A program made the translations under genes and the position numbers. A DNA stretch of 31,867 nt from a virus. Lineage: Duplodnaviria > Caudoviricetes. Shown in pieces: positions 2,035 through 31,291 of the stretch; the stretch's first letter is position 1; each line of letters starts with the position of its first letter. The notes under the pieces are model-generated. The model saw nothing but the letters and a program-made list of their open reading frames with translations, was not told the origin of the DNA and made no database searches. Location: positions 1-31,867 of IMG/VR virus record IMGVR_UViG_3300017991_000291; one strand, 5' to 3'.

Positions 2035-2129
2035 CGAAAAATATCCTGCAATTCACCAAAGATTGCAAATGTCTTAACATCGACAACGCCTCTTGATGTA
2101 TGAAGAAACAGAGACAACAACCTATTCAT
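2031..2129 (-). CDS. Short divergent unit, 32 aa (MNRLLSLFLHTSRGVVDVKTFAIFGELQDIFR)
   Basis: Manual translation; starts in the junction of 2122..2325 and ends in an ATGA overlap. Confidence 0.4.
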   Translation of the reverse strand: MNRLLSLFLHTSRGVVDVKTFAIFGELQDIFR

Positions 2130-2325
2130 AATAATCTTCTTTCAATTGCCGCCCGACTCGCAACTCGACTTGATTCCAAACTCGCTCCCAAACTTGCCAC
2201 CCGACTTGCCGCGCGACTTGGCTATCTACTTGCCACCCGACTTGCCGTCTGACTTGCAACCCGACTTGCTCCCAGACTCGGATTTGATTCTCAACTTGCC
2301 GCTCGGCTTGATCTTCACTCATCAT
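2122..2325 (-). CDS. QVxx repeat mini-protein, 67 aa
   Basis: QVENQIRVWEQVGLQVRRQVGWQV...QLKEDYYE. Confidence 0.75.
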   Translation of the reverse strand: MMSEDQAERQVENQIRVWEQVGLQVRRQVGWQVDSQVARQVGWQVWERVWNQVELRVGRQLKEDYYE

Positions 2326-2479
2326 AAAAATCTTCTTTCAATTGCTGCCCGACTTGCTCCCAGACTTGCCGCCAGACTTGCCGTCCGACTTGCAGCCAGA
2401 CTTGCTGCCAGACTTGCCGATCAACTTGTCGCATGACTTGCAGTCTGATTTGCCGCTCAACTTGATCTTCAATCGTCAT
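2315..2479 (-). CDS. QVxx repeat mini-protein, 54 aa (start revised to MTIEDQV)
   Basis: The track's N-terminal extension is the shadow frame of the upstream repeat; ends QQLKEDFYDE. Confidence 0.75.
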   Translation of the reverse strand: MTIEDQVERQIRLQVMRQVDRQVWQQVWLQVGRQVWRQVWEQVGQQLKEDFYDE

Positions 2480-2669
2480 GATAATCTTCTTCCAATTGCC
2501 ACCCGGTTTGCCAATAGACGTGATTCCAAACTCGCTCCCAAACTTGCCACCCGACTTGCCGATAGACTTGATCCCAGACTTGCCGATAGACTTGATCCCA
2601 GACTTGCCGTCTGACTTGCAACCCGACTCGCCACCGGATTTGCCGCTCAACTTGATCTTCAATCGTCAT
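2469..2669 (-). CDS. QVxx repeat mini-protein, 66 aa (MTIEDQVERQIRW...)
   Basis: Start in the conserved junction; ends WQLEEDYHDD. Confidence 0.75.
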   Translation of the reverse strand: MTIEDQVERQIRWRVGLQVRRQVWDQVYRQVWDQVYRQVGWQVWERVWNHVYWQTGWQLEEDYHDD

Positions 2670-2862
2670 AATAATCTTCATCCAATTGTTGTGTGGTTTG
2701 CAGATAAACTTGCTCCCAGGCGTGCGACCATACTTGCCTATAGACTTGCAACCAGATTTGCACCCAGACTTGCCGCTCGACTTGCCACATGATTTGCTGC
2801 TCGACGTGCTGCCCGACTCGCTGATATATTTGATGCTTGATTTGGTGATCTTCACTCATCAT
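2659..2862 (-). CDS. QVxx repeat mini-protein, 67 aa (MMSEDHQIKHQ...)
   Basis: Start in junction; ends QQLDEDYYDD. Confidence 0.75.
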   Translation of the reverse strand: MMSEDHQIKHQIYQRVGQHVEQQIMWQVERQVWVQIWLQVYRQVWSHAWEQVYLQTTQQLDEDYYDD

Positions 2863-2968
2863 AATAGTCTTCACCCAATTGCTCCCAAACCTGCCACCAA
2901 ACATGCCGCCAGACTTGATCCTCAACTTGCGGCCAAATTTGCTTATCTACTTGTTCTTTACTCATCAT
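2852..2968 (-). CDS. QVxx repeat mini-protein, 38 aa (MMSKEQVDKQ...)
   Basis: Start in junction; ends EQLGEDYYDE. Confidence 0.7.
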   Translation of the reverse strand: MMSKEQVDKQIWPQVEDQVWRHVWWQVWEQLGEDYYDE

Positions 2969-3140
2969 AATCATCTCTGACTTGCTGCCTCGCTTGCCGC
3001 CTGACTCGATCCTCAACTTGCCGCCAGACTTGCCACCAAACTTGCCGCCTGAATTGCCATTCGACTTGTTCCTCGACTTGCAGTCCGATTTGCTGCCTGA
3101 CTTGCCGCCTGACTCGATTATCAATCCTTTCGTTATGCAT
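2958..3140 (-). CDS. QVxx repeat mini-protein, 60 aa (MHNERIDNRVRRQV...)
   Basis: ATG at 3140; ends QQVRDDYDE. Confidence 0.75.
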   Translation of the reverse strand: MHNERIDNRVRRQVRQQIGLQVEEQVEWQFRRQVWWQVWRQVEDRVRRQARQQVRDDYDE

Positions 3141-3366
3141 CAAAATCTTCTTTCAGTTGTGGCTTGATGCGCGCCGCGATGCACCCCCTGACTTGGACCT
3201 CAACATCCCATTCAACACGCATCCTAAGTGGCAACCAGACTTGTTCTCTGATTTGTTTCCAATCATCTTGATCATAGATTTGATACCTGAGTTTATCCCA
3301 GACTTGCTGATTGACTTGCCGCCAGAATTGGTGTGTGACTTGTCGCTTAACTTGTTCGTTCATCAT
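3133..3366 (-). CDS. QVxx repeat mini-protein, 77 aa, first intact unit of array A
   Basis: MMNEQVKRQVTHQFWRQVNQQVWD...PQLKEDFDA. Confidence 0.75.
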   Translation of the reverse strand: MMNEQVKRQVTHQFWRQVNQQVWDKLRYQIYDQDDWKQIREQVWLPLRMRVEWDVEVQVRGCIAARIKPQLKEDFDA

Positions 3367-3400
3367 AATCTTATCCCAATTGCCATCTGCTACATGCCTA

Positions 3401-3487
3401 GCAATTCTCTATTGTAGGGTGCCCCATCGGATGATTGAAATGGAACTCTTCGGGCATTGCCCAGGACACCCTACAATAGAGAATTGC
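3401..3487. repeat. Perfect 21-bp inverted repeat with 45-nt spacer
   Basis: gcaattctctattgtagggtg (3401-3421) and caccctacaatagagaattgc (3467-3487); extends 4 more pairs, two of them G-U, on the minus-strand RNA. Confidence 0.9.
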
Positions 3488-3671
3488 GCCTCGTGTGCAT
3501 TTCCCATTCAGCATAATTAATCAGTCTAGTGATTTGCCGAATGCCTTTCTCTGTCATCACAACCCACCCGCCCAATGCAGAAGGGCAGACAACGATCCAT
3601 AGCCGGTGTGGTGCAATTGCATGGAAAACGGTGTCACCAACCTGTATGTCGTTATACTGCCCTTCTGTCAT
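3471..3671 (-). CDS. Hypothetical protein, 66 aa (MTEGQYNDIQVGDTV...)
   Basis: ATG 1 nt after the AAA ATPase stop; IQVGDTV start is typical of small SH3-like phage proteins. Confidence 0.55.
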   Translation of the reverse strand: MTEGQYNDIQVGDTVFHAIAPHRLWIVVCPSALGGWVVMTEKGIRQITRLINYAEWEMHTRRNSLL

Positions 3672-3672
3672 A

Positions 3673-4650
3673 TTAGCGCTTCCTGCATGTCGTTGCGCGT
3701 GCAATTTTTAACCAATTGCCCTGTCCGCTCTGACGAATTTCTCCGACTTTAATCGCGGTTCGTAGAGACAATTCACGCAACTGATTTGCATACTTTTCGA
3801 TGAAGTGAATGACATCTTCGATTTCGTTAGGGCTTAGCCCGTTTGAAGAAAGCATGCCTTCACGGATCACCTGCTTGATGCGAACGATGTAGTCTTGCCT
3901 CGTTTTCATATCCAGATCGATATAGTGTGAACGTGAGAGCATTGCCTTGAAGTGCGGTGCGTTGCGATGTTCACGTTCAATCATCGCATCGAAATCCAGA
4001 TTTGTGATGAAAATGATTGTGCCTTCGAAAGTGAAGGTTTTGGGGATCATTTCACCATTGTCGTCATCTTTCATTCTCCGCTCTGACATATAACTCACGT
4101 TGCGCTTCTTGCTCGTATCCAGAACAGCCTTGAGGATATTTAAGCTGGTCTCGTCATTGAATACACTGTCAGCGTCGTCGAAGATAATCACTTCACCAGC
4201 ATGCCGATGCTTGTAAAGCATTCGATAAAGACCAGTCGGCCTGACATAACCCTTGATCAGCGAATGTCGCTCACCATTCGCATCCCATTCTGCCAGCGCC
4301 TCTTCGACGCTGAACGACTTTCCAAGACCAGGAGGACCAGCAACGATCATGCTGCGAAGCCCACCCTTGAGTGCATCATCGATCAGATACGAGAGAATTT
4401 CAAAACTCTCGCGAATGTTCTTATCGACTTCTTCGTCAGTCAGACGCGGCTCGCCTTCGAATGCGGTTGGTGCCGTTCTGCTGATCAGTTCGTTGCGGTT
4501 GGATGGTTTTGCATCTACCGCATCATAATAACCCTCGATGGGGCTTTCGGTTTCGTTCTTCTTCTTGCTGCTCTTGCGCCACATGGCGGCACTGAGAGCA
4601 AGTGCCGATGCGCTCGTCAGGAGCGCTACGTACAAATACATGTCAATCAT
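3673..4650 (-). CDS. AAA+ ATPase with N-terminal hydrophobic anchor
   Basis: Walker A GPPGLGKS, Walker B IIFDDAD, sensor IFITN; AAAGGA RBS. Confidence 0.85.
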   Translation of the reverse strand: MIDMYLYVALLTSASALALSAAMWRKSSKKKNETESPIEGYYDAVDAKPSNRNELISRTAPTAFEGEPRLTDEEVDKNIRESFEILSYLIDDALKGGLRSMIVAGPPGLGKSFSVEEALAEWDANGERHSLIKGYVRPTGLYRMLYKHRHAGEVIIFDDADSVFNDETSLNILKAVLDTSKKRNVSYMSERRMKDDDNGEMIPKTFTFEGTIIFITNLDFDAMIEREHRNAPHFKAMLSRSHYIDLDMKTRQDYIVRIKQVIREGMLSSNGLSPNEIEDVIHFIEKYANQLRELSLRTAIKVGEIRQSGQGNWLKIARATTCRKR

Positions 4651-4663
4651 GTTGTGTTCCTTT

Positions 4664-4709
4664 CTTCATCCGATGATTAGATCATATGCCAATCATCGGA
4701 TGAAGTCAA
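4664..4709 (-). promoter_or_regulatory. Sigma70-type promoter inside a perfect 15-bp inverted repeat
   Basis: TTGACT (4709-4704), 17 nt, TATGAT (4686-4681); arms cttcatccgatgatt (4664-4678) and aatcatcggatgaag (4691-4705). Confidence 0.8.
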
Positions 4710-4717
4710 GAGATTTT

Positions 4718-5020
4718 TCAACGAACCTGTACGCGCGTCACGATGGTCTGCTTCTCATCCCGCCATTCGCTGTGTTCCTTGATCGTGAACACCACATCCG
4801 CCGTATCACCGACTGCTAGACGACAAACGCCGAAGGTTTTGATGCAATTGCCGTTTTCGTCGCGGAGCGTTGTTATTACCCCACCGCCATAGCGACTTTC
4901 GTAGTGGTGCTTGTGTTCACACGTTACCCTGCTCGCCAAGCGCTTTCCAGGATAGCCAACCCAATTGGAATTCCGCTTGATCTCGGCAAGCTTGGCTTGC
5001 TTGGCAGCTTTCTCTTCTGC
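4718..5020 (-). pseudogene. 5'-truncated gene: C-terminal OB-fold-like domain of a common phage protein
   Basis: SNWVGYPGKR..RYG..LRDENGN..GDT..TIKEHSEWRDEKQTIVTR; sequence upstream of about 5020 is QV repeat in another frame, and the frame has no ATG. Confidence 0.55.
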
Positions 5021-5094
5021 CAATCGACTTGCTGCTCGCCTTGCCGCCAGACTTGCCAATCGATTTGCCGCCCGACTTGTTCTTCAATCTTCAT
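4924..5094 (-). pseudogene. Truncated QVxx unit (26 repeat residues) fused out of frame to the downstream gene
   Basis: MKIEEQVGRQIDWQVWRQGEQQVDWQ then non-repeat tail; first ~70 nt nearly identical to the start of 5084..5281. Confidence 0.65.
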
Positions 5095-5281
5095 AATCTT
5101 TTTCCAATTGCCACCGGACTTGCCACCTGACTTGCTGCCAGACTTGCCACCGTACTCGCCGCCAGACTTGCTGCCAGACTTTATTATTGACTTGCCACCT
5201 GACTTGCCGCACGACTTGCTGCTCGCCTTGCCGCCAGACTTGCCAATCGATTTGCCGCCTGATTTGCTCTTCAATCTTCAT
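5084..5281 (-). CDS. QVxx repeat mini-protein, 65 aa (array B)
   Basis: MKIEEQIRRQIDWQVWRQ...WQLEKDYED; 9 Trp and 15 Gln. Confidence 0.75.
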   Translation of the reverse strand: MKIEEQIRRQIDWQVWRQGEQQVVRQVRWQVNNKVWQQVWRRVRWQVWQQVRWQVRWQLEKDYED

Positions 5282-5791: not shown

Positions 5792-5830
5792 TTTATCGCA
5801 CATCCAAAGGAGCATGTCAACAACTTTTTT
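5792..5830 (-). promoter_or_regulatory. Early (sigma70-type) promoter
   Basis: AAAAAAGTTG-TTGACA (5820-5815), 17 nt ending GATGTGC, GATAAA (5797-5792). Confidence 0.75.
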
Positions 5831-5912: not shown

Positions 5913-5988
5913 TGGTGCCGAGTGAGGGACTTGAACCCCCAACCACCTGATTACAAATCAGGTGCACTACCAGTTGTGCTAACTCGGC
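5913..5988 (-). tRNA. tRNA-Thr(TGT)
   Basis: GCCGAGT..CCTGA-TTTGTAA-TCAGG..GGTTCAAGTCC..ACTCGGCACCA. Confidence 0.95.
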
Positions 5989-7019
5989 TATATTGCCTTT
6001 GCCAAATTCAGCTTGGCTTTGACGCGGCTTTTAGCAACATGCAATGGTGTTTTGCCAGTCACCGCGCCTGTTTCAAGTATCGACAAAACGCGATGCTTGA
6101 TGTTGTCAATCTCGCGCATATGATCTTGTTTCGTGACGTAGTTGGCCGCTGCAATCACACCACCAGCGTTGGCAATGAAGTCTGGAATATACAAAATATC
6201 CTTTGTTTTCAATGCGTTAGCCAAGTCGTCATCTGCAAGCTGATTGTTTGCAATTCCACAAATTGCCTTGCATTGCAACTGTGCAATAACACCACTTGTC
6301 AGAATTCCACCAAGCGCACACGGAGCCAAAATATCGCACTCCGTCGAAAGAATTTCACTTGAGTGAACAACCGTTGCGTTTAATTCTGTCGCCATTGTCT
6401 GTCCGAGGTTTGGCATGTCGTCATCAATCGTTATATCGGAGATGAACAATTGTCCAACACCGACTTTGTGAAGAAGTCTCGCCAACGCATAGCCGGTTTT
6501 GCCAACCCCTTGAATTGCAACGCTTTTTTGCGTCAAATCCCAACCGTTAAACTCCGCAACGGCGAGAATTGCGTTGAATGCACCGCGTGCTGTGCTTTCC
6601 AAAATTGGCGTTGCTACGCCACAAACATATTCACTCGTTCGAGACACGGCACGCATATCGCCCAGGGTTGAGCCAAAATCAACGGCAGTGTAATATTGCC
6701 CAGCCAACTGATTAACATGTTCACCGAAACACTCGAAAAGTTCTTTACGATCTTTTCCATCCCAAGTGTTTGAAAGTATTACACTTTTCCCACCCCCCAA
6801 CGGAAGATCAGCAGCAGCACATTTGTATGTCATCCCATGTGACAAACGCAGTACGTCTCGCAGAGCATCATTTGGATTGTCATATTTTGCAAAGCGACAA
6901 CCACCAACCGCTGGTCCTAGCGTCGTATCATGAATGGCAATCATGCCACGTAGCCGACCACCCAACCCATTGAACATGAATACTTTTTCATGATTTGCAT
7001 AACTACTGTGTGTGAACAT
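5988..7019 (-). CDS. Leu/Phe/Val-type amino acid dehydrogenase (Glu/Leu/Phe/Val family)
   Basis: IAIHDTTLGPAVGGCR, LRLSHGMTYK, LGGGKSVI, QGVGKTG, PCALGG, GIANNQL, PDFIANAGG. Confidence 0.93.
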   Translation of the reverse strand: MFTHSSYANHEKVFMFNGLGGRLRGMIAIHDTTLGPAVGGCRFAKYDNPNDALRDVLRLSHGMTYKCAAADLPLGGGKSVILSNTWDGKDRKELFECFGEHVNQLAGQYYTAVDFGSTLGDMRAVSRTSEYVCGVATPILESTARGAFNAILAVAEFNGWDLTQKSVAIQGVGKTGYALARLLHKVGVGQLFISDITIDDDMPNLGQTMATELNATVVHSSEILSTECDILAPCALGGILTSGVIAQLQCKAICGIANNQLADDDLANALKTKDILYIPDFIANAGGVIAAANYVTKQDHMREIDNIKHRVLSILETGAVTGKTPLHVAKSRVKAKLNLAKAI

Positions 7020-7324: not shown

Positions 7325-7587
7325 TTTGAATCCATGTTATATGTTAGGCCAATAATTTTGTTGCCGTCTGTTTCATACAGCGATGGTGCACCAAACATGC
7401 TCGTCAACAACTCGATTTGCTCTGCTGACATTTCATTCATCAACTCCTGGCCTTCACACCAGAACATCAACGAAATGCCATCGTCATCAACGCTTATACC
7501 ATTTTCCTTGACGATTTGCAAGTCATCCAGGTGCTTCGTGGTGAAATCCTCGATGTATTTTCGTTTGGAACTTGTGCGACGGGGCAT
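7321..7587 (-). CDS. Hypothetical protein, 88 aa
   Basis: AGGAG RBS; overlaps the speD 3' end by 65 nt. Confidence 0.55.
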   Translation of the reverse strand: MPRRTSSKRKYIEDFTTKHLDDLQIVKENGISVDDDGISLMFWCEGQELMNEMSAEQIELLTSMFGAPSLYETDGNKIIGLTYNMDSK

Positions 7588-7933
7588 GGCCTTCTTCTCC
7601 TAGATATTTAACGATATTTTGGATGCATTCAAAAGCATCACACGATCCGCACATATAGACATCCAGAGTGGCCAAATTGTATTCTGGCCATGTATGGACG
7701 GATGCATGGCTTTCTGACAAGACTAGCATTCCTGTGAACCCACCAAAATCAGAATTCTCGCCGGGGAAATCGTTAACCGATCTATACAGAATGGTTGCGC
7801 CTTCTGCGAGAACAGCACGTTCCATGATATTCATCAGAATTGCTGAGTTGTTGGAAAAACACACTTGGTTCAATTCTGGTTCCCACCGCAAATCCAACAT
7901 TGCGTGTTTTCCGACATATGGTATCGCTTTCAT
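7523..7933 (-). CDS. speD: S-adenosylmethionine decarboxylase proenzyme (class 1B)
   Basis: GKH..LDL, GFTGMLVLSE/SHASVHTWPE, DVYMCG, C-terminal RG. Confidence 0.92.
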   Translation of the reverse strand: MKAIPYVGKHAMLDLRWEPELNQVCFSNNSAILMNIMERAVLAEGATILYRSVNDFPGENSDFGGFTGMLVLSESHASVHTWPEYNLATLDVYMCGSCDAFECIQNIVKYLGEEGHAPSHKFQTKIHRGFHHEAPG

Positions 7934-12265: not shown

Positions 12266-12304
12266 GTTATCGCACATCAGCGGATGGGTGTCAACAACTT
12301 TTTT
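12266..12304 (-). promoter_or_regulatory. Early promoter
   Basis: AAAAAAGTTG-TTGACA (12294-12289), 17 nt ending GATGTGC, GATAAC (12271-12266). Confidence 0.8.
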
Positions 12305-25496: not shown

Positions 25497-25709
25497 TCAC
25501 ACTTCTTTAATGTGTACCTCATACACTGGTATTTCACTAAAAACAGTGTTTTTTCTAACGATATCTAGAATTTCCCATTGTCTATTTTGACCCAAAGTGG
25601 AAAATTTTTTCACATCCCCGACAGTGAAATTTTCAAACCATCGAAAATGTGTCAACAGTTGCCCGTTCTCTATGAAATGAACGTAACCATAAAAACGATC
25701 TTCGATCAC
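25497..25709 (-). CDS. Hypothetical protein, about 70 aa
   Basis: GTGA overlap with the last array-C unit. Confidence 0.55.
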   Translation of the reverse strand: MIEDRFYGYVHFIENGQLLTHFRWFENFTVGDVKKFSTLGQNRQWEILDIVRKNTVFSEIPVYEVHIKEV

Positions 25710-25888
25710 CGACAATTTTCATCCCATCCATCACAATCCTCCATAACTTGCCATAAGATTTGCTGATTGACTTGCCGCCAGATTTGCCGCCAGACTTGCC
25801 ACACAACTTGATCATATACTTGCTCCAAAACTTTCTGATCGACTTGCTGATCGATTTGAACCAAGAATGATTTTACGTTATACATCAT
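25706..25888 (-). CDS. QVxx repeat mini-protein
   Basis: QIDQQVDQKVLEQVYDQVVWQVWRQIWRQV. Confidence 0.7.
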   Translation of the reverse strand: MMYNVKSFLVQIDQQVDQKVLEQVYDQVVWQVWRQIWRQVNQQILWQVMEDCDGWDENCR

Positions 25889-26054
25889 AATCATCCATGA
25901 TTTGCCAGAAGACTTGCTGATTGGCTTGCTTATTGACTTGCCGCCAGACTTTCTGATTAACTTCCTGATCTACTTTCAGATTGACTAACCAAGCAACTTT
26001 ATTCCAGACTTGATGTGCGCCGCATCCGAATGTTTTATATATCAATTCCATCAT
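25878..26054 (-). CDS. QVxx repeat mini-protein
   Basis: QEVNQKVWRQVNKQANQQVFWQIMDDYDV. Confidence 0.7.
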   Translation of the reverse strand: MMELIYKTFGCGAHQVWNKVAWLVNLKVDQEVNQKVWRQVNKQANQQVFWQIMDDYDV

Positions 26055-26226
26055 AATCATCCATAGCTTGCCGCTTGGCTTTCAACCAAACTCGATCCCC
26101 AACTTGCCACCATACTTGCTGATCAATTTGCCGCCAGACTTGCTGATCGAATTTCCGCCTGACTTGCCGCAAGACTTTCTCTCTGACTTGCCATCCGATT
26201 TGTATATCAATTCTCGCGTTATCCAT
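26035..26226 (-). CDS. QVxx repeat mini-protein (MDNARIDIQIGWQV...)
   Basis: Start in junction. Confidence 0.7.
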   Translation of the reverse strand: MDNARIDIQIGWQVREKVLRQVRRKFDQQVWRQIDQQVWWQVGDRVWLKAKRQAMDDYDGIDI

Positions 26227-26413
26227 CAAAATCCTTCCAAAGTTGAAAATAGCCTTGCTGCCAGCGTTGCCGATTAACTTTCTGCCAGAGTTGCCACACA
26301 ACTTGATCATATACTTGCCCCAAGACTTTCTGACGAACGTTTTCCAGACATTGCGCATCGATAGAAGAAAACCCTTGCTGCCCGACTTGATCAACGATTT
26401 TTATTTTATTCAT
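26219..26413 (-). CDS. QVxx repeat mini-protein (MNKIKIVDQV...)
   Basis: Shares QKVL.QVYDQVVWQ with 25706..25888. Confidence 0.7.
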   Translation of the reverse strand: MNKIKIVDQVGQQGFSSIDAQCLENVRQKVLGQVYDQVVWQLWQKVNRQRWQQGYFQLWKDFDG

Positions 26414-26591: not shown

Positions 26592-26610
26592 AACCAAACA
26601 CCCATCTGAT

Positions 26611-26644
26611 AAAAAAAACCGGCGTAGGTTTCCCCACGCCGGTT
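26611..26644 (-). terminator. Rho-independent terminator closing the DUF6745 operon
   Basis: AACCGGCGTGGG-GAAA-CCTACGCCGG-TTTTTTTT. Confidence 0.92.
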
Positions 26645-26673: not shown

Positions 26674-27015
26674 CTAGTCCTGAACGCGACGATAGCCTTC
26701 TGGCGTGTACTCGCGCTGACGGATGATTCTGTAGTCACCCGGCTCAAGGAGCAGAGATTCGTGTGTATCATAGTCGCGAAGGTGAGTAAGCTCACTCGCG
26801 CGATGAAGCGTCAGAAACGCTTCAAGTTCGTTGTCCGGGTTTTCGAACATGCTTGCATCATTACGATCCAGCACGTGGTGGTGCCCGGTTTCAGAGTGCG
26901 TGACAATCAGGTGGTTCCCTTCCGGCGCAACCTCTTTCAGATTGCTTCGGTCGAAGCTGTCCACACGCATGATCATCACATCACCCTGAGCAGCGATTTT
27001 CTTGAAAGTTCTCAT
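26674..27015 (-). CDS. His-rich conserved partner of DUF6745 proteins
   Basis: QGDV..HSETGHHH..LTH...DTH..L.PG.Y.I.RQREY.P...RRV.D; GAGGA RBS, ATG 1 nt after the upstream stop. Confidence 0.8.
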   Translation of the reverse strand: MRTFKKIAAQGDVMIMRVDSFDRSNLKEVAPEGNHLIVTHSETGHHHVLDRNDASMFENPDNELEAFLTLHRASELTHLRDYDTHESLLLEPGDYRIIRQREYTPEGYRRVQD

Positions 27016-27016
27016 A

Positions 27017-27907
27017 TTACGTCCTCACTTCTGGTTTGACAAACTCGTTGACATCGATACCCCATGTGCTCGCTTGCGCTTCCATGGCAGTATTGACATC
27101 AGGCGGCACGGGAATGGCAAAAAATCGTCCAGTCCCACACTTCACACGCAAGAACCTTTCGGTTCCAACGTCAGGGAGATCGACTTCAAGCAGAGTGCCG
27201 ATCTCAGGATCATCATCCTGATGGATGACCTTGGCATCAAGTTGGTTGAGAACGCTTTCCCACCCAACGATTTCAGAAAAACACCGGCGCTGTTCGATGT
27301 CTTCCCACGTCAACGCGATACGCGGATCGAGTTGGCTTTTCGGCGTCATCAGCCATTCACGCGGTACACGCGTGCCATGCCAACAACAAACAGTCCAACC
27401 ATCGCGATAACGCAGCGAAGGTCCTTCTTCACTGTGTTGCCGCCCTTCGTCATCGAGTTTGATGAATTCGGGACGATTGACAATCACAGCAACATCCTCT
27501 TCCCACCACACGTTGTCACAGGCAGAACAGAGTTCTTCAAAAACCTTGAAGTTTGCGAGCGTTTCGTTCTCCCAATTGAGAACGTCACGGAAGAAGGTGA
27601 TATAAGCGCACGAAGAAACTTGCGAAGAACCGCAATACAGCTTCGAAATCCCATCGTAACATTCTTGTTTTGTTGGCTCACGGCCAAGCTGATGTTCCAG
27701 GCCCATCTTGATTGCTGCAAACGGGGAGTCTGCAAAAAGCACAGTTGGGCGCGGACGCTCGATGATGTCGTAAATTTTCAGAACACGCTCTTTTGCGTAC
27801 TCGAAATCCACGGGTTCAGTGGAAAGACCAATCTTCACCCATTTCTCAGTCCAACCAGGAATTTGTGCTTCCTGTTCAGGTGTCATGCTCTCGATTTTCT
27901 CAGGCAT
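27017..27907 (-). CDS. DUF6745-type protein lacking the internal QV/QL repeat
   Basis: TPEQEA..KW..IGLSTEP.D..DSP; RP....DDEGRQHSEEGP..Y.DGW...WHG.RVP; EQRR; PVPP...TA.EA.A.TWG. Family recognised from memory of these motifs. Confidence 0.8.
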   Translation of the reverse strand: MPEKIESMTPEQEAQIPGWTEKWVKIGLSTEPVDFEYAKERVLKIYDIIERPRPTVLFADSPFAAIKMGLEHQLGREPTKQECYDGISKLYCGSSQVSSCAYITFFRDVLNWENETLANFKVFEELCSACDNVWWEEDVAVIVNRPEFIKLDDEGRQHSEEGPSLRYRDGWTVCCWHGTRVPREWLMTPKSQLDPRIALTWEDIEQRRCFSEIVGWESVLNQLDAKVIHQDDDPEIGTLLEVDLPDVGTERFLRVKCGTGRFFAIPVPPDVNTAMEAQASTWGIDVNEFVKPEVRT

Positions 27908-27941: not shown

Positions 27942-27979
27942 TGTCTACCACAAGTTCTATTTACTGTCAACAACCTTTT
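27942..27979 (-). promoter_or_regulatory. Early promoter of the DUF6745 operon
   Basis: AAAAGGTTG-TTGACA (27970-27965), 17 nt ending TGTGG, TAGACA (27947-27942). Confidence 0.7.
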
Positions 27980-28055: not shown

Positions 28056-28223
28056 TCAAGCACCTTTTTTAAAATCTTCCCTCGCCTGACTTATGAAGTG
28101 TTTTTCGAAATTCATATTAGCGTTTATAGCTTTCCTGAGTTGCCATCTGACTGCTATGTTGATACGTACGGCTTGCAATGCAGACAGGAATCTAATCGAC
28201 CCAACTTTGCTACATATTGTCAT
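28056..28223 (-). CDS. Divergent terminal unit, 55 aa (MTICSKV...QAREDFKKGA)
   Basis: Start in junction; family-like end. Confidence 0.55.
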   Translation of the reverse strand: MTICSKVGSIRFLSALQAVRINIAVRWQLRKAINANMNFEKHFISQAREDFKKGA

Positions 28224-28410
28224 GATAATCATCCATAACTTGCTTCCTGGCATCCCGCCAGACTTGCTCATCGACTTGTCGATAGACTTGCCACCAGACT
28301 TGCCAATTGATATGACGTTCGACATACAGCCAGAATTGATCATTGAGTTGATCCCAGAGTTGCTGATCAATTTTCCGCCCGACTTGATTATTCATTTGCT
28401 CTTCATTCAT
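28210..28410 (-). CDS. QVxx repeat mini-protein (MNEEQMNNQV...)
   Basis: Ends QVMDDYHDNM; paralog of 28578..28772. Confidence 0.72.
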   Translation of the reverse strand: MNEEQMNNQVGRKIDQQLWDQLNDQFWLYVERHINWQVWWQVYRQVDEQVWRDARKQVMDDYHDNM

Positions 28411-28585
28411 GATAATCATCCATAACTTGCTGCTTAGTTTGCCACCCAACACGCAAATAAACATCCTGCACCTGTTCCCATTCTACTATATTCCATACTT
28501 GCCGCTTGAGTTGTATACTTAATTGGTTTCTGGATGTCTCATAGACTTGCTCATAGATTCGATAGTGGATTCGGTGTTTAATCAT
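28403..28585 (-). CDS. QVxx repeat mini-protein (MIKHRIHY...)
   Basis: Ends QQVMDDYHE. Confidence 0.7.
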   Translation of the reverse strand: MIKHRIHYRIYEQVYETSRNQLSIQLKRQVWNIVEWEQVQDVYLRVGWQTKQQVMDDYHE

Positions 28586-28772
28586 GATAATCATCCATAA
28601 CTTGATGAACAACTTTCAAATTGCATTGCTCTTCGACTTGCCGATAGACTTGCCGCCAGACTTGCACTTGGGCTTGTTGCCATAGTTGCTGCCCGATTTG
28701 CCGATTGATATGATGTCCGACATACAGCCAGAATTGCTCATAAACCGGATCGTAGATTTGCTCTTCATTCAT
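28578..28772 (-). CDS. QVxx repeat mini-protein (MNEEQIYDPV...)
   Basis: Ends HQVMDDYHD. Confidence 0.72.
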   Translation of the reverse strand: MNEEQIYDPVYEQFWLYVGHHINRQIGQQLWQQAQVQVWRQVYRQVEEQCNLKVVHQVMDDYHD

Positions 28773-28944
28773 GATAATCCTCTTTCAATTGATCCACTTC
28801 TTGCCGCCCGACATGCCACCAAACACGCCCATCCGCTCTCCACCAGACAAATTCTCTAACAATATATCGAATATCTTTATCAATACACTTCCAGACTTTT
28901 GCGTTGAACACAACCAAAAATGTTCTGTCGATATCAAGATGCAT
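28765..28944 (-). CDS. Family member, 59 aa (MHLDIDRTFL...DQLKEDYHE), below the track cutoff
   Basis: Manual translation; paralog of 29100..29288. Confidence 0.7.
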   Translation of the reverse strand: MHLDIDRTFLVVFNAKVWKCIDKDIRYIVREFVWWRADGRVWWHVGRQEVDQLKEDYHE

Positions 28945-29110
28945 GAAAATCTTCTCTCGCTTGTTGACGCGCTTGTTTGTCGGCTTGTAGTCTCGTGTTT
29001 TCTAAAATGTCCCACCAAACCGGCACATAAACTGCGCTATTAATATTGTCCACCATCATATTCCATATTGGAGTTTCAACTTTCTTCTCAACTTCAATAT
29101 CAATCCTCAT
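28934..29110 (-). CDS. Family member, 58 aa (MRIDIEVEKKV...QQAREDFHAS), below the track cutoff
   Basis: Manual translation. Confidence 0.65.
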   Translation of the reverse strand: MRIDIEVEKKVETPIWNMMVDNINSAVYVPVWWDILENTRLQADKQARQQAREDFHAS

Positions 29111-29288
29111 GATAATCCTCTTTCAATTGATCCACTTCATGCCGCCCAACTTGCCGCCACCAAACACGTCCATCCGCTCTCAACCAGACAACTTCGCCAA
29201 CAAGATATCGAATATCTCTATCAATATACTCCCAGGTTTTTGCGCATGCATTCGCCCAAAACGTTTTGTTTATATCAGTAATCTTCAT
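29100..29288 (-). CDS. Family member, 62 aa (MKITDINKTF...)
   Basis: Ends DQLKEDYHED. Confidence 0.7.
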   Translation of the reverse strand: MKITDINKTFWANACAKTWEYIDRDIRYLVGEVVWLRADGRVWWRQVGRHEVDQLKEDYHED

Positions 29289-29463
29289 GATAATCGTCTT
29301 TCAGTTGCCCATCAACTTGCCACTTGAGTTGCATCCAGACTTGATCCCAAACTTGACCCCAGACTTGTTGATTGACTTGCCGCAAGGTCTGATCCCCGAC
29401 GCACCGATCTACGCACATCATTACCTGCCACCAAACTTGCTCATTGCATTGTCGTTCATTCAT
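29275..29463 (-). CDS. QVxx repeat mini-protein (MNERQCNEQV...)
   Basis: Ends GQLKDDYHEDY. Confidence 0.72.
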   Translation of the reverse strand: MNERQCNEQVWWQVMMCVDRCVGDQTLRQVNQQVWGQVWDQVWMQLKWQVDGQLKDDYHEDY

Positions 29464-29623
29464 GATAATCATCTTTCAGTTGCGACCAATTTTGACACTT
29501 GACTTGCCACCAGACTTCATTTCTGACATGCCACCAAACGAACTGTTTGACTTGATGCTCGATTTTCAGGATTGATCCAAAGACTTGCCAATCAATCTGT
29601 TGTTCGATCCGTTGTTCATTCAT
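29456..29623 (-). CDS. QVxx repeat mini-protein, 55 aa (MNEQRIEQQIDWQV...), below the track cutoff
   Basis: Manual translation; ends QNWSQLKDDYHE. Confidence 0.7.
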   Translation of the reverse strand: MNEQRIEQQIDWQVFGSILKIEHQVKQFVWWHVRNEVWWQVKCQNWSQLKDDYHE

Positions 29624-29810
29624 GATAATCATCTTTCAGTTGCGACCAATTTTGATCCCAAACTTGCTGATCGTTTTGATCCCAGAATTTCCAATTGATT
29701 TGCTCCAAGATTTGCATCCTAATTTGCATTCTGGTTTGATCCGAACTTTGATTCCAGCTTTGGTATTCGATTTGATCCCTGACTTGCCGCCAGACTTGAT
29801 GCCTAATCAC
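29616..29810 (-). CDS. QVxx repeat mini-protein (GTG 29810 or ATG 29819 start)
   Basis: Ends QNWSQLKDDYHE. Confidence 0.7.
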   Translation of the reverse strand: MIRHQVWRQVRDQIEYQSWNQSSDQTRMQIRMQILEQINWKFWDQNDQQVWDQNWSQLKDDYHE

Positions 29811-29991
29811 GCCAATCATCCTTCAATTGCATCTCTGCACCCCCTCCCTGTTGCGCCCACAATCGATCATCAAGCTTCTGTTTGATTTGCTGCCAGAGTT
29901 GCCATTCAACATGCCGCACGGTTCGAGAAAAAATTTCCATAAGAACTTGCGTCCCAACTTGCTTAATTTGCCAACATTGATCTTCATGCAT
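29803..29991 (-). CDS. QVxx repeat mini-protein (MHEDQCWQI...)
   Basis: Ends MQLKDDWRD. Confidence 0.68.
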   Translation of the reverse strand: MHEDQCWQIKQVGTQVLMEIFSRTVRHVEWQLWQQIKQKLDDRLWAQQGGGAEMQLKDDWRD

Positions 29992-30169
29992 CAAAAGCAC
30001 CTCTCAATTGCTGCCTAACGTGAAACCTGAATTGCAGCCAGACTTGCTCCCCGGCTTGATCCCACACTTGCTTCTCGACTTGCTCTTCGACTTGTCGCTC
30101 GACGTACTGCTCGACTTCTCGCACAACTTGCCACATAATTATCTGCTGAACTAGATGATCAATTTTCAT
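29984..30169 (-). CDS. QVxx repeat mini-protein (MKIDHLVQQ...)
   Basis: Ends QQLRGAFDA. Confidence 0.72.
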   Translation of the reverse strand: MKIDHLVQQIIMWQVVREVEQYVERQVEEQVEKQVWDQAGEQVWLQFRFHVRQQLRGAFDA

Positions 30170-30365
30170 CAAAATCACCTCTCAATTGCTGTCTAGCGTG
30201 AAACCTGACTTGTCGATCAACTTGCATCCATACTTGCTTCTCGACTTGATCCCAAACTTGACACCTGACTTGCTCTTCGGTTTGATCCCACGCTTGTCGC
30301 TTGATTTGCTGCAAGATTCGTCGATCAATTCGAAACCAAACATTTTCAATTCTTTTGCCGTTCAT
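30159..30365 (-). CDS. QVxx repeat mini-protein (MNGKRIENVW...), mosaic
   Basis: Ends QQLRGDFDEN. Confidence 0.75.
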   Translation of the reverse strand: MNGKRIENVWFRIDRRILQQIKRQAWDQTEEQVRCQVWDQVEKQVWMQVDRQVRFHARQQLRGDFDEN

Positions 30366-30561
30366 TGCAATCATACCTCAATTGCCTCAAAACGTGCCGC
30401 CAGATTTGCCGATCAACTTGATCCCATACTTGCTTCTCGACTTGATCCCAAACTTGACACCTGACTTGCTCTTCGACTTGCTGCCAGATTTGCGTCCTGC
30501 CTTCTCGGTAGATTTGTTGATCAATTCGAAACCAAACATTTTCAATTCTTTTGCCGTTCAT
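30346..30561 (-). CDS. QVxx repeat mini-protein (MNGKRIENVW...)
   Basis: Ends RQLRYDCNERQKN. Confidence 0.75.
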   Translation of the reverse strand: MNGKRIENVWFRIDQQIYREGRTQIWQQVEEQVRCQVWDQVEKQVWDQVDRQIWRHVLRQLRYDCNERQKN

Positions 30562-30757
30562 TGCAATCATACCTCAATTGCCTCAAAACGTGCCGCCAGA
30601 TTTGCCGATCAGCTTGCCGCCAGACTTGATCTTCGGCTTGATCCCATACTTGCTTCTCGACTTGCTCTTCGGCTTGATCCCATACTTGCGTCCTGACTTG
30701 CTGCCAGATTTGTAGATCAACTTGCAACCAAATATTTTCAATTCTTTTACTGTTCAT
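30542..30757 (-). CDS. QVxx repeat mini-protein (MNSKRIENIW...)
   Basis: Ends RQLRYDCNERQKN. Confidence 0.75.
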   Translation of the reverse strand: MNSKRIENIWLQVDLQIWQQVRTQVWDQAEEQVEKQVWDQAEDQVWRQADRQIWRHVLRQLRYDCNERQKN

Positions 30758-30950
30758 CAAAATCACCTCTCAATTGCTCTTTAAAATGAAACCGATGCTG
30801 ATAGACTTGATCCCATACTTGATTCTCGACTTGATCCCATACTTGATCCCAGGATTGCTCTTCGGTTTGATCCCACGCTTGTCGCTTGATTTGCTGCAAG
30901 ATTTGTAAATCAACTTGCAACCAAACGTCTTCAACTCTTTCGTTATTCAT
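30747..30950 (-). CDS. QVxx repeat mini-protein (MNNERVEDVW...)
   Basis: Ends EQLRGDFDEQ. Confidence 0.75.
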   Translation of the reverse strand: MNNERVEDVWLQVDLQILQQIKRQAWDQTEEQSWDQVWDQVENQVWDQVYQHRFHFKEQLRGDFDEQ

Positions 30951-31101
30951 TGCAATCTTCCATCAATTGCCCCTGTATTTGCCGTACAGTTTGATGTCCT
31001 ATTCTCTTGCTGGTTTTCCGCCTGACTTTACCGCCAATTTGCCGTCCTATTTGGCCCCAGACTTGCCACGTGAATGTCCGCCAGATATTCATTTCAATCA
31101 T
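30943..31101 (-). CDS. QVxx repeat mini-protein, 52 aa (MIEMNIWRTFTWQVWGQI...), below the track cutoff
   Basis: Manual translation; ends GQLMEDCNE. Confidence 0.68.
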   Translation of the reverse strand: MIEMNIWRTFTWQVWGQIGRQIGGKVRRKTSKRIGHQTVRQIQGQLMEDCNE

Positions 31102-31291
31102 AATGATCTTCCTTCAATTGCATCCTGGCCTTTCGCCAAACGCTAAACGTGACAGCCCACTCAACTTCCCATCTAACAGACCTCCCGACCAACAATCGTG
31201 TGCTTACAGAACAACAATCAATACATTCCTTATGCGTTGCCCATCTGACATGTTCATCCAACAATGCATCGACCATTGCAAATTTCCTCAT
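31094..31291 (-). CDS. Divergent first unit of array D, 65 aa
   Basis: ATGA overlap with the MazG-like gene; ends MQLKEDHYD. Confidence 0.62.
   Translation of the reverse strand: MRKFAMVDALLDEHVRWATHKECIDCCSVSTRLLVGRSVRWEVEWAVTFSVWRKARMQLKEDHYD

What the first reader, a model, noticed from the sequence alone, without database searches (positions are those of the whole stretch)
27017..27907. DUF6745 protein lacks the repeat segment that the surrounding mini-genes encode (possible split architecture)
Recalled family knowledge, not searched here: many DUF6745 proteins have the layout [LTPEQE..W...LSTEP.D..DSP]-[(QVWD/QLWS)n tetrapeptide tract]-[RP..D..GRLH...GPA..Y.DG..HG..VP]. Seen: after ADSPFAAIKMGL this protein has only EHQLGREPTKQECYDGISK before the C-terminal part, with no tract, while dozens of free-standing QVWxQV tracts are its neighbours. 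Inference: the variable tract has been externalised, either as interchangeable trans-acting subunits, as donor cassettes for recombination, or as dominant-negative mimics acting on repeat-containing homologs.
Basis: partly seen in the sequence, partly recalled or inferred. Interest (0 to 1): 0.85.

Follow-up and report, generated by a model that had tools for sequence, protein, structure and literature searches.

The report
Phage protein with detached repeat library
A T4-like phage encodes an unstudied protein (DUF6745) without the variable four-amino-acid repeat that many related phages build into it, and carries that repeat instead as 30 separate mini-genes, which likely give one core protein interchangeable parts, possibly for countering host defences.

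Summary
Confirmed. 27017-27907(-) is a 296-aa DUF6745 with a 27-aa linker exactly where relatives carry Q[VL]xx tetrapeptide tracts. The window holds 30 intact mini-genes of that repeat, 21 of them flanking DUF6745 and its His-rich partner gene. Tract-less DUF6745 is common, but it travels with mini-genes. Among 101 representative homologs, 44 had a tract and no minis, 43 had minis and no tract, 14 had neither nearby, and none had both. The switch recurs on the tree (14 changes; independent-pair p 0.06), and QL-type minis sit beside QL-tract relatives. A reverse DNA search found the repeat only inside DUF6745 or in minis. Donor-cassette recombination is unlikely, because there is no homology to the gene. 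Best reading: repeated gene fission, with the minis likely working in trans as exchangeable subunits. A counter-defence role rests only on analogy to the non-homologous Tweety gp54. No paper mentions DUF6745. This scan noted the same arrangement earlier on other phage genomes.

The parts
27017..27907 (-). Tract-less DUF6745 core, 296 aa: helical N-domain, 27-aa linker (residues 64-90), RP..D..GR.H...GP motif, EQRR helix, beta C-domain with CGTGR, C-terminal RT
   Evidence: AF2 model pLDDT 92.8, pTM 0.82
26674..27015 (-). Partner gene, 113 aa, predicted almost all-beta, invariant QGD / HSETGHxH / H78 / H85 / RQRE; phrog_27831; starts 1 nt after the DUF6745 stop
   Evidence: 194 hits in the 222 sequences scanned; an Atlas cluster named DUF6745-containing (366 aa) holds a matching domain
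28210..31276 (-). Upstream array of 17 overlapping Q[VIL]xx mini-genes (52-71 aa), between the MazG-like gene and DUF6745
25706..26413 (-). Downstream array of 4 mini-genes (58-64 aa)
4924..5281 (-). Two mini-genes; the second loses the repeat in its C-terminal half
2122..3366 (-). Distant array of 7 mini-genes (37-77 aa)
27942..27979 (-). Promoter-like element AAAA[AG]GTTGTTGACA-17 nt-TAGACA upstream of DUF6745; the 15-nt motif recurs exactly at 12303 and 5829
   Evidence: (3 exact matches, 4 with up to 2 mismatches; shuffle mean 0.74); a consensus match, not shown to function
26607..26644 (-). Intrinsic-terminator-like 12-bp hairpin plus T run, closing the predicted DUF6745-partner two-gene unit

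Best explanation
This is a split form of a three-part phage module, in which the repeat that relatives carry inside DUF6745 is encoded as a library of free mini-genes whose products likely bind the tract-less core in trans as exchangeable subunits. Shown: the module is DUF6745 core + His-rich partner + Q[VL]xx repeat, and the repeat sits either inside the core's linker or in free mini-genes, not both, in the loci examined. Inferred: several lineages lost the internal tract and moved it into short, translationally coupled genes that multiply and diverge by tandem duplication and 12-bp slippage, keeping Q-[VIL] fixed while positions 3-4 vary. Inferred: the roughly 60-aa minis are helical and supply the variable recognition surface, while the conserved core and partner (a possible metal site) supply a constant activity. 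Least certain: that the targets are host anti-phage proteins, as for the tunable tetrapeptide-repeat counter-defence protein Tweety gp54, so that one phage would field about 30 specificities instead of one. My odds: fission with function in trans about 0.85; physical docking on the core or partner about 0.6; counter-defence as the role about 0.35.
For: Mutual exclusion: 112 of 136 short-linker cores have minis within the locus, against 0 of 29 tract-bearing cores; in 70%-identity clusters with loci of 5 kb or more, 21 of 26 against 0 of 20 (Fisher p 1e-8, not corrected for kinship). Among 101 representatives, none has both. Reverse search for QVW[DN]QVW[DN]Q: of 128 loci, 46 lie inside DUF6745, 61 in minis, 21 are cut or unassigned and 0 lie in other long proteins; all 30 flanked tract loci lack minis, and all 22 mini loci with a DUF6745 have a tract-less one. 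Whole genomes: 3 of 3 complete tract-bearing records show the repeat only in the DUF6745 frame; 2 of 2 complete short-linker records have 26 and 9 matches in short frames; 2 of 2 complete mini-bearing records without a nearby core have a tract-less core elsewhere. Linkage: median distance to the nearest mini is 61 bp (n=112), and it is on the same strand in 79 of 79. Recurrence: 14 tract changes on the tree, and one clade for all short-linker rows is rejected (AU p 0.023). Dialect: only 6 of 116 mini loci are QL-type, and L030/L045 among them branch within the QL/NL-tract group. Split cores keep the residues that are invariant in fused cores. Minis are more varied: 77 different position 3-4 pairs in 172 window tetrads, against 34 in 463 fused tetrads. 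Analogy: Tweety gp54 (PMC2884959, PMC9262239, PMC8549241; passages read).
Against: 24 of 136 short-linker cores have no mini in the locus. Some of these are short fragments, but the closest relative with long flanks (L193) has none in its whole bin, and L085 has the same gene order without arrays in 4.7 kb. One 92%-complete record with a free 220-aa repeat protein gave no DUF6745 match. 12 of 16 cores with long non-repeat linkers, and Ma-LMM01, have no minis, so a tetrad repeat is not needed in every member. The kinship-corrected test is not significant (7 starred pairs, 4.9 the same way, 0 the other way, median p 0.0625), and 36 of the tract-less rows are one clade. L011 has QV minis although its starred sister has an SV tract. 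The caps of the minis differ between genomes, so there is no universal docking peptide. In the window a terminator-like site and separate promoter-like sites suggest that core and minis are on different transcripts. Tweety gp54 is not detectably homologous (hhalign probability 0.2%). The arrays were almost unchanged between two samples (1 change in the arrays over 14.8 kb), so fast turnover is not shown.
Confidence: 0.55

Rival explanations
1. After fission the minis act on their own, as free decoys or sponges that bind host targets directly; the core and partner act in the same pathway but do not hold the minis.
For: Minis have genome-specific caps, are also found far from the core (window 2122-5281; records G016 and G017) and may be transcribed separately. 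Some tract-less cores lack nearby minis.
Against: It does not explain why no tract-bearing genome examined has free minis (0 of 44 representatives), nor why the nearest mini lies a median 61 bp from the core gene.
Confidence: 0.2
2. The minis are substrates or building blocks: the core and His-rich partner modify, chaperone or nucleate them into a filament or coat, and variation tunes that polymer rather than target recognition.
For: Invariant His/Glu and Cys residues in partner and core suggest chemistry. The fixed Q-[VIL] stripe every four residues and many co-expressed paralogues would suit co-assembly (inference).
Against: In fused forms the same repeat is tethered at both ends inside the core. 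Neither protein matches a known enzyme fold.
Confidence: 0.12
3. The minis are dominant-negative mimics that poison tract-bearing DUF6745 proteins of competing phages or prophages.
For: Tract-bearing homologs occur in prophage-like regions of many bacterial genomes, and the minis resemble their tracts.
Against: Mimics would not need their own genome's core to be tract-less and fully conserved, and the repeat dialect follows the lineage's own core in the clearest case.
Confidence: 0.08
4. The minis are donor cassettes recombined into the DUF6745 linker, as in antigenic variation.
For: The tract sits at one fixed site and varies widely in length among homologs.
Against: The longest shared word between the gene and the arrays is 11 nt (9 nt for the linker region); 21 control segments give 10-14. 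The minis have their own ATG and overlapping junctions. No joint ends in the gene and no indel is seen in contigs of 4 runs (contigs drop rare variants). No locus had both forms.
Confidence: 0.03
5. The arrays are non-functional 12-bp minisatellite expansions that follow loss of the tract by chance.
For: The Gln codon is almost always CAA (A at position 3 in 251 of 278 units), and neighbouring units share long DNA stretches, as expected from slippage and homogenisation.
Against: All 30 units are open from ATG to stop, while the other two frames hold 75 and 154 stops; the median pairwise protein identity is only 0.29. The same design recurs in at least 112 loci.
Confidence: 0.02

Closest known systems
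DUF6745 (Pfam PF20530, phrog_31813) with partner phrog_27831, e.g. prophage prophiGD102-1 gp38/gp37 and Microcystis phage Ma-LMM01 MAP_174/MAP_175
   Same: Same core and same adjacent partner; Foldseek match to the LMM01 protein at E 1.7e-18.
   Different: prophiGD102-1 gp38 has an internal QL tract, and LMM01 has a long non-repeat linker and no minis. Here the linker is empty and the repeat is on 30 separate genes. No function is published for the family.
Mycobacteriophage Tweety gp54 (with Che8 gp57 and PMC gp51), a tunable counter-defence protein
   Same: A 12-bp/tetrapeptide tract with the first two residues fixed and the last two variable, between unique N- and C-domains (PMC2884959, passages). 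Repeat-number changes tune it against Phrann and MichelleMyBell prophage defences (PMC9262239, PMC8549241, passages). This mirrors the fused DUF6745 layout.
   Different: No detectable homology to DUF6745 (no Pfam hit). The repeat is AAxx, not Q[VL]xx. It is a single fused gene with no library and no His-rich partner beside it.
Silent-cassette gene conversion (pilS/pilE, vls) and diversity-generating retroelements (recalled)
   Same: A constant expressed core plus many variable versions of one segment.
   Different: No homology between the arrays and the core gene. The variants are intact genes, not silent cassettes. No reverse transcriptase among the 30 window ORFs scanned.
PeSL-bounded hyperplastic regions of T4-like phages (PMC2839356, PMC4122927; search listing only)
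   Same: Small variable genes in a T4-like genome, with a repeated promoter-like motif.
   Different: Here the units are paralogues joined by overlapping stop/start junctions, with no promoter cassette per unit.

Membership tests
DUF6745 (PF20530) | Score above the Pfam gathering cut-off | tested here: met
   80.3 bits against 27, E 1.6e-22
DUF6745 (PF20530) | Invariant core residues shared with tract-bearing members (His of the RLH motif, EQRR, CGTGR, terminal RT) | tested here: met
   (71 split and 27 fused cores)
Fused DUF6745 subtype | Period-4 tract in the linker | tested here: not met
   27-aa linker without a tract
Tweety gp54 family | Sequence homology of the N- and C-domains | tested here: not met
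   hhalign probability 0.2%, E 0.34 (one gp54 sequence against the DUF6745 profile)
Tweety gp54 family | 12-bp tetrapeptide repeat with fixed first two and variable last two residues | tested here: met
   Q in 221 of 278 units at position 1, V/I/L in 232 of 278 at position 2, positions 3-4 mixed; a likeness of design, not of sequence
Tweety gp54 family | Repeat-tuned escape from a defence system | not testable with these tools
   Needs infection assays
Silent-cassette gene conversion | DNA homology between cassettes and the expressed gene | tested here: not met
   Longest shared word 11 nt, controls 10-14
Diversity-generating retroelement | Reverse transcriptase plus a template/variable repeat pair | tested here: inconclusive
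   None among the 30 ORFs scanned and no repeat pair with the gene, but the record is a 31.9-kb fragment
Cupin / known metalloenzyme fold (partner protein) | Fold match to solved structures | tested here: inconclusive
   Foldseek gave nothing at E<=0.001; VIA best Z 3.4, rmsd 4.4, 84 aligned
Known anti-phage defence proteins (PADLOC) | Profile match | tested here: not met
   0 families for 4 proteins at E<=1

The most novel reading that the evidence does not exclude
Phages have repeatedly turned a single tunable repeat arm into a combinatorial library: one constant DUF6745/partner effector is loaded with any of dozens of co-expressed repeat microproteins, giving one virus a polyspecific, evolvable set of adaptors against host defence proteins, like an F-box or antibody repertoire without DNA rearrangement.
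Probability: 0.3. Interest if true: 0.92.

Novelty: categorically new. Interest (0 to 1): 0.74.

Why it matters
No paper in the library mentions DUF6745, and none describes its repeat (one listing, a nanopore paper). Yet the module is widespread in phages and prophage-like regions, and neither protein has a solved relative. The fused/split alternation gives a clear, testable prediction: a free 60-aa repeat should complement a tract-less core. If the minis are exchangeable adaptors, this is a protein-level diversity system in phages. It would also offer a tractable way into how tetrapeptide-repeat proteins such as Tweety gp54 are tuned, a mechanism that PMC8549241 calls obscure. It also explains a class of short ORF arrays that gene callers can easily miss.

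Tried and rejected
Fold searches: the core has no PDB match (Foldseek; VIA best Z 4.3, rmsd 4.1, 68 aligned, rows covering only residues 214-288), and neither has the partner; my first guess of a cupin is unsupported. The ESM Atlas gave only unnamed or DUF6745 clusters, plus DUF6745-LRR fusions in cyanobacteria. NCBIfam and PADLOC gave nothing above cut-off. Longer partner homologs are mostly joined to HNH or unrelated upstream frames, which I judge uninformative. My first mini detector missed W-poor and QL-type minis and was replaced. No RNA holder was listed, which says nothing about expression. The 13 joints all end within the arrays, with sides of 46 nt or less; they may come from other minis, so I did not use them. 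The intergenic RNA upstream of DUF6745 folds no better than shuffles (z 0.60). The Ma-LMM01 transcriptome paper does not name gp174/gp175 in its main text; its supplements were not read and may give their timing. Literature searches without a relevant hit. Rows dropped: 45 of 229 DUF6745 ORFs had no measurable linker and 3 were near-identical copies of the window. Trees used loci of 5 kb or more, clustered at 85% (80 rows) or 80% (101 rows); the second left out L002 and L003 and kept one doubtful Gly-rich row (L290_56).

Full report
Setting. The window is a 31.9-kb virus record with ThyX, a class II ribonucleotide reductase, T4-type RNase H, PhoH, DUF6433 and a GIY-YIG nuclease. I read it as part of a large T4-like phage (inference from gene content). 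Ten DNA runs from sediment and seawater, in 8 studies, hold the region.

Observation. 27907-27017 encodes a 296-aa DUF6745. Between the conserved DSP motif and the Y-[CG]-G motif it has 27 residues. Of the 120 best homologs listed, 30 have three or more tetrads in this linker and 77 have 35 residues or fewer. In the AF2 model (pLDDT 92.8) the linker is helix 62-74, a loop, and helix 80-89, and the alignment opens its gaps at that loop. Some longer homologs carry hundreds of non-repeat residues between the same anchors, so the site appears to be a general payload position (inference). A 113-aa partner follows after 1 nt, with a promoter-like site before the pair and a terminator-like site after it. 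The partner has invariant H40, E42, H45, H47, H78 and H85 in 25 aligned sequences and had 194 hits in the 222 sequences scanned. The window has 30 mini-genes: all start with ATG and are open, most overlap the previous stop by 8-29 nt behind purine-rich leaders, and their median pairwise identity is 0.29. Of 278 12-bp units, 221 start with Gln and 232 have Val, Ile or Leu second; positions 3 and 4 vary.

Association test. From three collection scans (the best 80, 80 and 58 loci) I obtained 229 DUF6745 ORFs. 181 had a measurable linker once 3 copies of the window were removed. With the corrected detector: short linker with minis 112, without 24; repeat tract with minis 0, without 29; long non-repeat linker with minis 4, without 12. 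In 70% clusters with at least 5 kb of DNA the counts were 21 of 26 against 0 of 20 (p 1e-8, kinship ignored). The nearest mini lay a median 61 bp away and was on the same strand in 79 of 79 distinct cores. Of 128 loci, 46 were inside DUF6745, 61 in free ORFs of 220 aa or less, 21 cut or unassigned, and none in another long protein. Of the 80 loci with flanks (not de-duplicated), all 30 tract loci had no minis; of 41 mini loci, 22 had a tract-less core, none a tract-bearing one and 19 no core in range; 9 were cut or unassigned. Whole-record checks agree. Three complete tract-bearing genomes show the repeat only in the DUF6745 frame; of the other two records in that call, one matched likewise and one, with an SV-type tract, gave no match. 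Complete short-linker genomes of 156 and 63 kb have 26 and 9 matches, so the split form is not confined to large phages. Of five mini-bearing records without a nearby core, the two complete ones have a tract-less core elsewhere; three (17, 63 and 92% complete) gave none. Against: of five short-linker records without nearby minis, only one had a match elsewhere. Three of the four blanks are 6-14% complete, but the fourth is the bin holding L193, the window's nearest relative on the tree. L085 shows the window's gene order without arrays in 4.7 kb, whereas L087, with a very similar core, has minis.

Phylogeny. On a core-only tree of 101 representatives, 44 have a tract and no minis, 43 minis and no tract, 14 neither and 0 both; the tract state changes at least 14 times. 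The window's group (window, L193, L087) lies in a starred 17-row clade that is otherwise mostly tract-bearing or long-linker. Mini-bearing, tract-less rows also occur at L259, L230, L303, L203, L155, L030/L045, L025/L126, L011 and in one clade of 36. Holding all 48 short-linker rows of the earlier 80-row tree in one clade is rejected (AU p 0.023; the group was defined by linker length, and the test was run after I had seen that tree). The independent-pair test leans the same way but is not significant (7 starred pairs, 4.9 the same way, 0 the other way, median p 0.0625). The tree is rooted only at its midpoint, so fission rather than fusion is the simpler reading but is not proven. The repeat dialect adds support. 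Only 6 of 116 mini-bearing loci use QL rather than QV; L030 and L045 (93-94% QL) branch with L182 (SH-aLRT 91) inside a group of QL/NL-tract cores (94), and L155 lies next to that group in an unresolved fork. L011 is a counter-example. Split cores keep the residues that are invariant in fused cores (71 against 27 sequences), so they are not decaying.

Mechanism. Donor cassettes need homology; the gene and the arrays share no more than chance. Contigs of four runs cross the linker without a joint or indel, though contigs drop rare variants. A second sample is 99.86% identical over 14.8 kb, with one change in the arrays, so there is no sign of programmed hypervariation. What remains is function in trans. 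A segment that is fused in some genomes and free, adjacent and on the same strand in others usually marks a physical partner (established comparative reasoning, recalled), so I favour minis docking on the core or on core + partner. I could not model this. Earlier notes of this scan report predicted docking for other genomes; these are unchecked and are not counted as support. Free minis explore more sequence than fused tracts (77 position 3-4 pairs in 172 window tetrads against 34 in 463), as expected if the benefit of splitting is many specificities at once. The biological role is the weakest step. The neighbourhoods sampled are replication, recombination and regulatory regions where they could be named (many neighbours had no match), and the promoter-like motif is of the host sigma-70 type, which fits an early or middle intracellular accessory role. 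The only characterised protein of like design that I found is Tweety gp54, whose repeat number tunes escape from prophage defences (PMC2884959, PMC9262239, PMC8549241; passages read; the primary study they cite was not read). It is not homologous, so it is an analogy only.

Novelty. Searches for DUF6745, for the repeat words and for the arrangement found no description; the library lacks most subscription papers. Neither protein has a solved relative or a fold match. The family has a Pfam name, but neither the three-part module nor its split library form was found in print. This scan noted it before on at least five other genomes. I rate it categorically new as an arrangement, with the mechanism inferred; interest 0.74.

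Noticed in passing
window 5815-5829, 12289-12303, 27965-27979 (-): The exact motif AAAA[AG]GTTGTTGACA precedes three transcription units (a 126-aa ORF, the 699-aa peptidase/AAA pair, and DUF6745); likely a phage early promoter.
   Followed up: partly
window 29316-29819: Contigs over two to three array units have about half the depth of their flanks in runs X1 and X3 (6-7 against 11-15), a weak hint of array polymorphism in the population.
   Followed up: no
window 28765-29288 and 31094-31276 (-): Several units keep the QLKEDYHE-type cap but have largely lost the Q-V stripe; two of them (29288-29100, 28944-28765) are 65% identical to each other.
   Followed up: no
L259:6024-6983, L265:9434-10774: These DUF6745 proteins end in a [QH]GD[VI] motif like the start of the partner protein, and an Atlas cluster holds core and partner domain in one chain.
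   Followed up: no
ESM Atlas cluster; P0159: DUF6745 fused to leucine-rich repeats in cyanobacteria (72 members), and to a PF09346 domain in one protein.
   Followed up: no
L169, L184, L217, L176, L196: Other tract dialects occupy the same linker: AAT[YDR], NL[WS][AD], SV[RW][AD]. The alanine-rich type recalls the AAxx repeat of Tweety gp54.
   Followed up: no
L250:9520-10182: A free 220-aa QV repeat protein in a 92%-complete record with no DUF6745 match.
   Followed up: partly
window 5988-7019 and 7523-7933 (-): The phage carries a Glu/Leu/Phe/Val dehydrogenase and an S-adenosylmethionine decarboxylase, possible auxiliary metabolic genes.
   Followed up: no
L290:6977-7777: A Gly-rich G[DNY]G[DNY] repeat protein ending in a DUF6745-like C-terminal part, beside a tract-bearing DUF6745 and two partner genes.
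   Followed up: no
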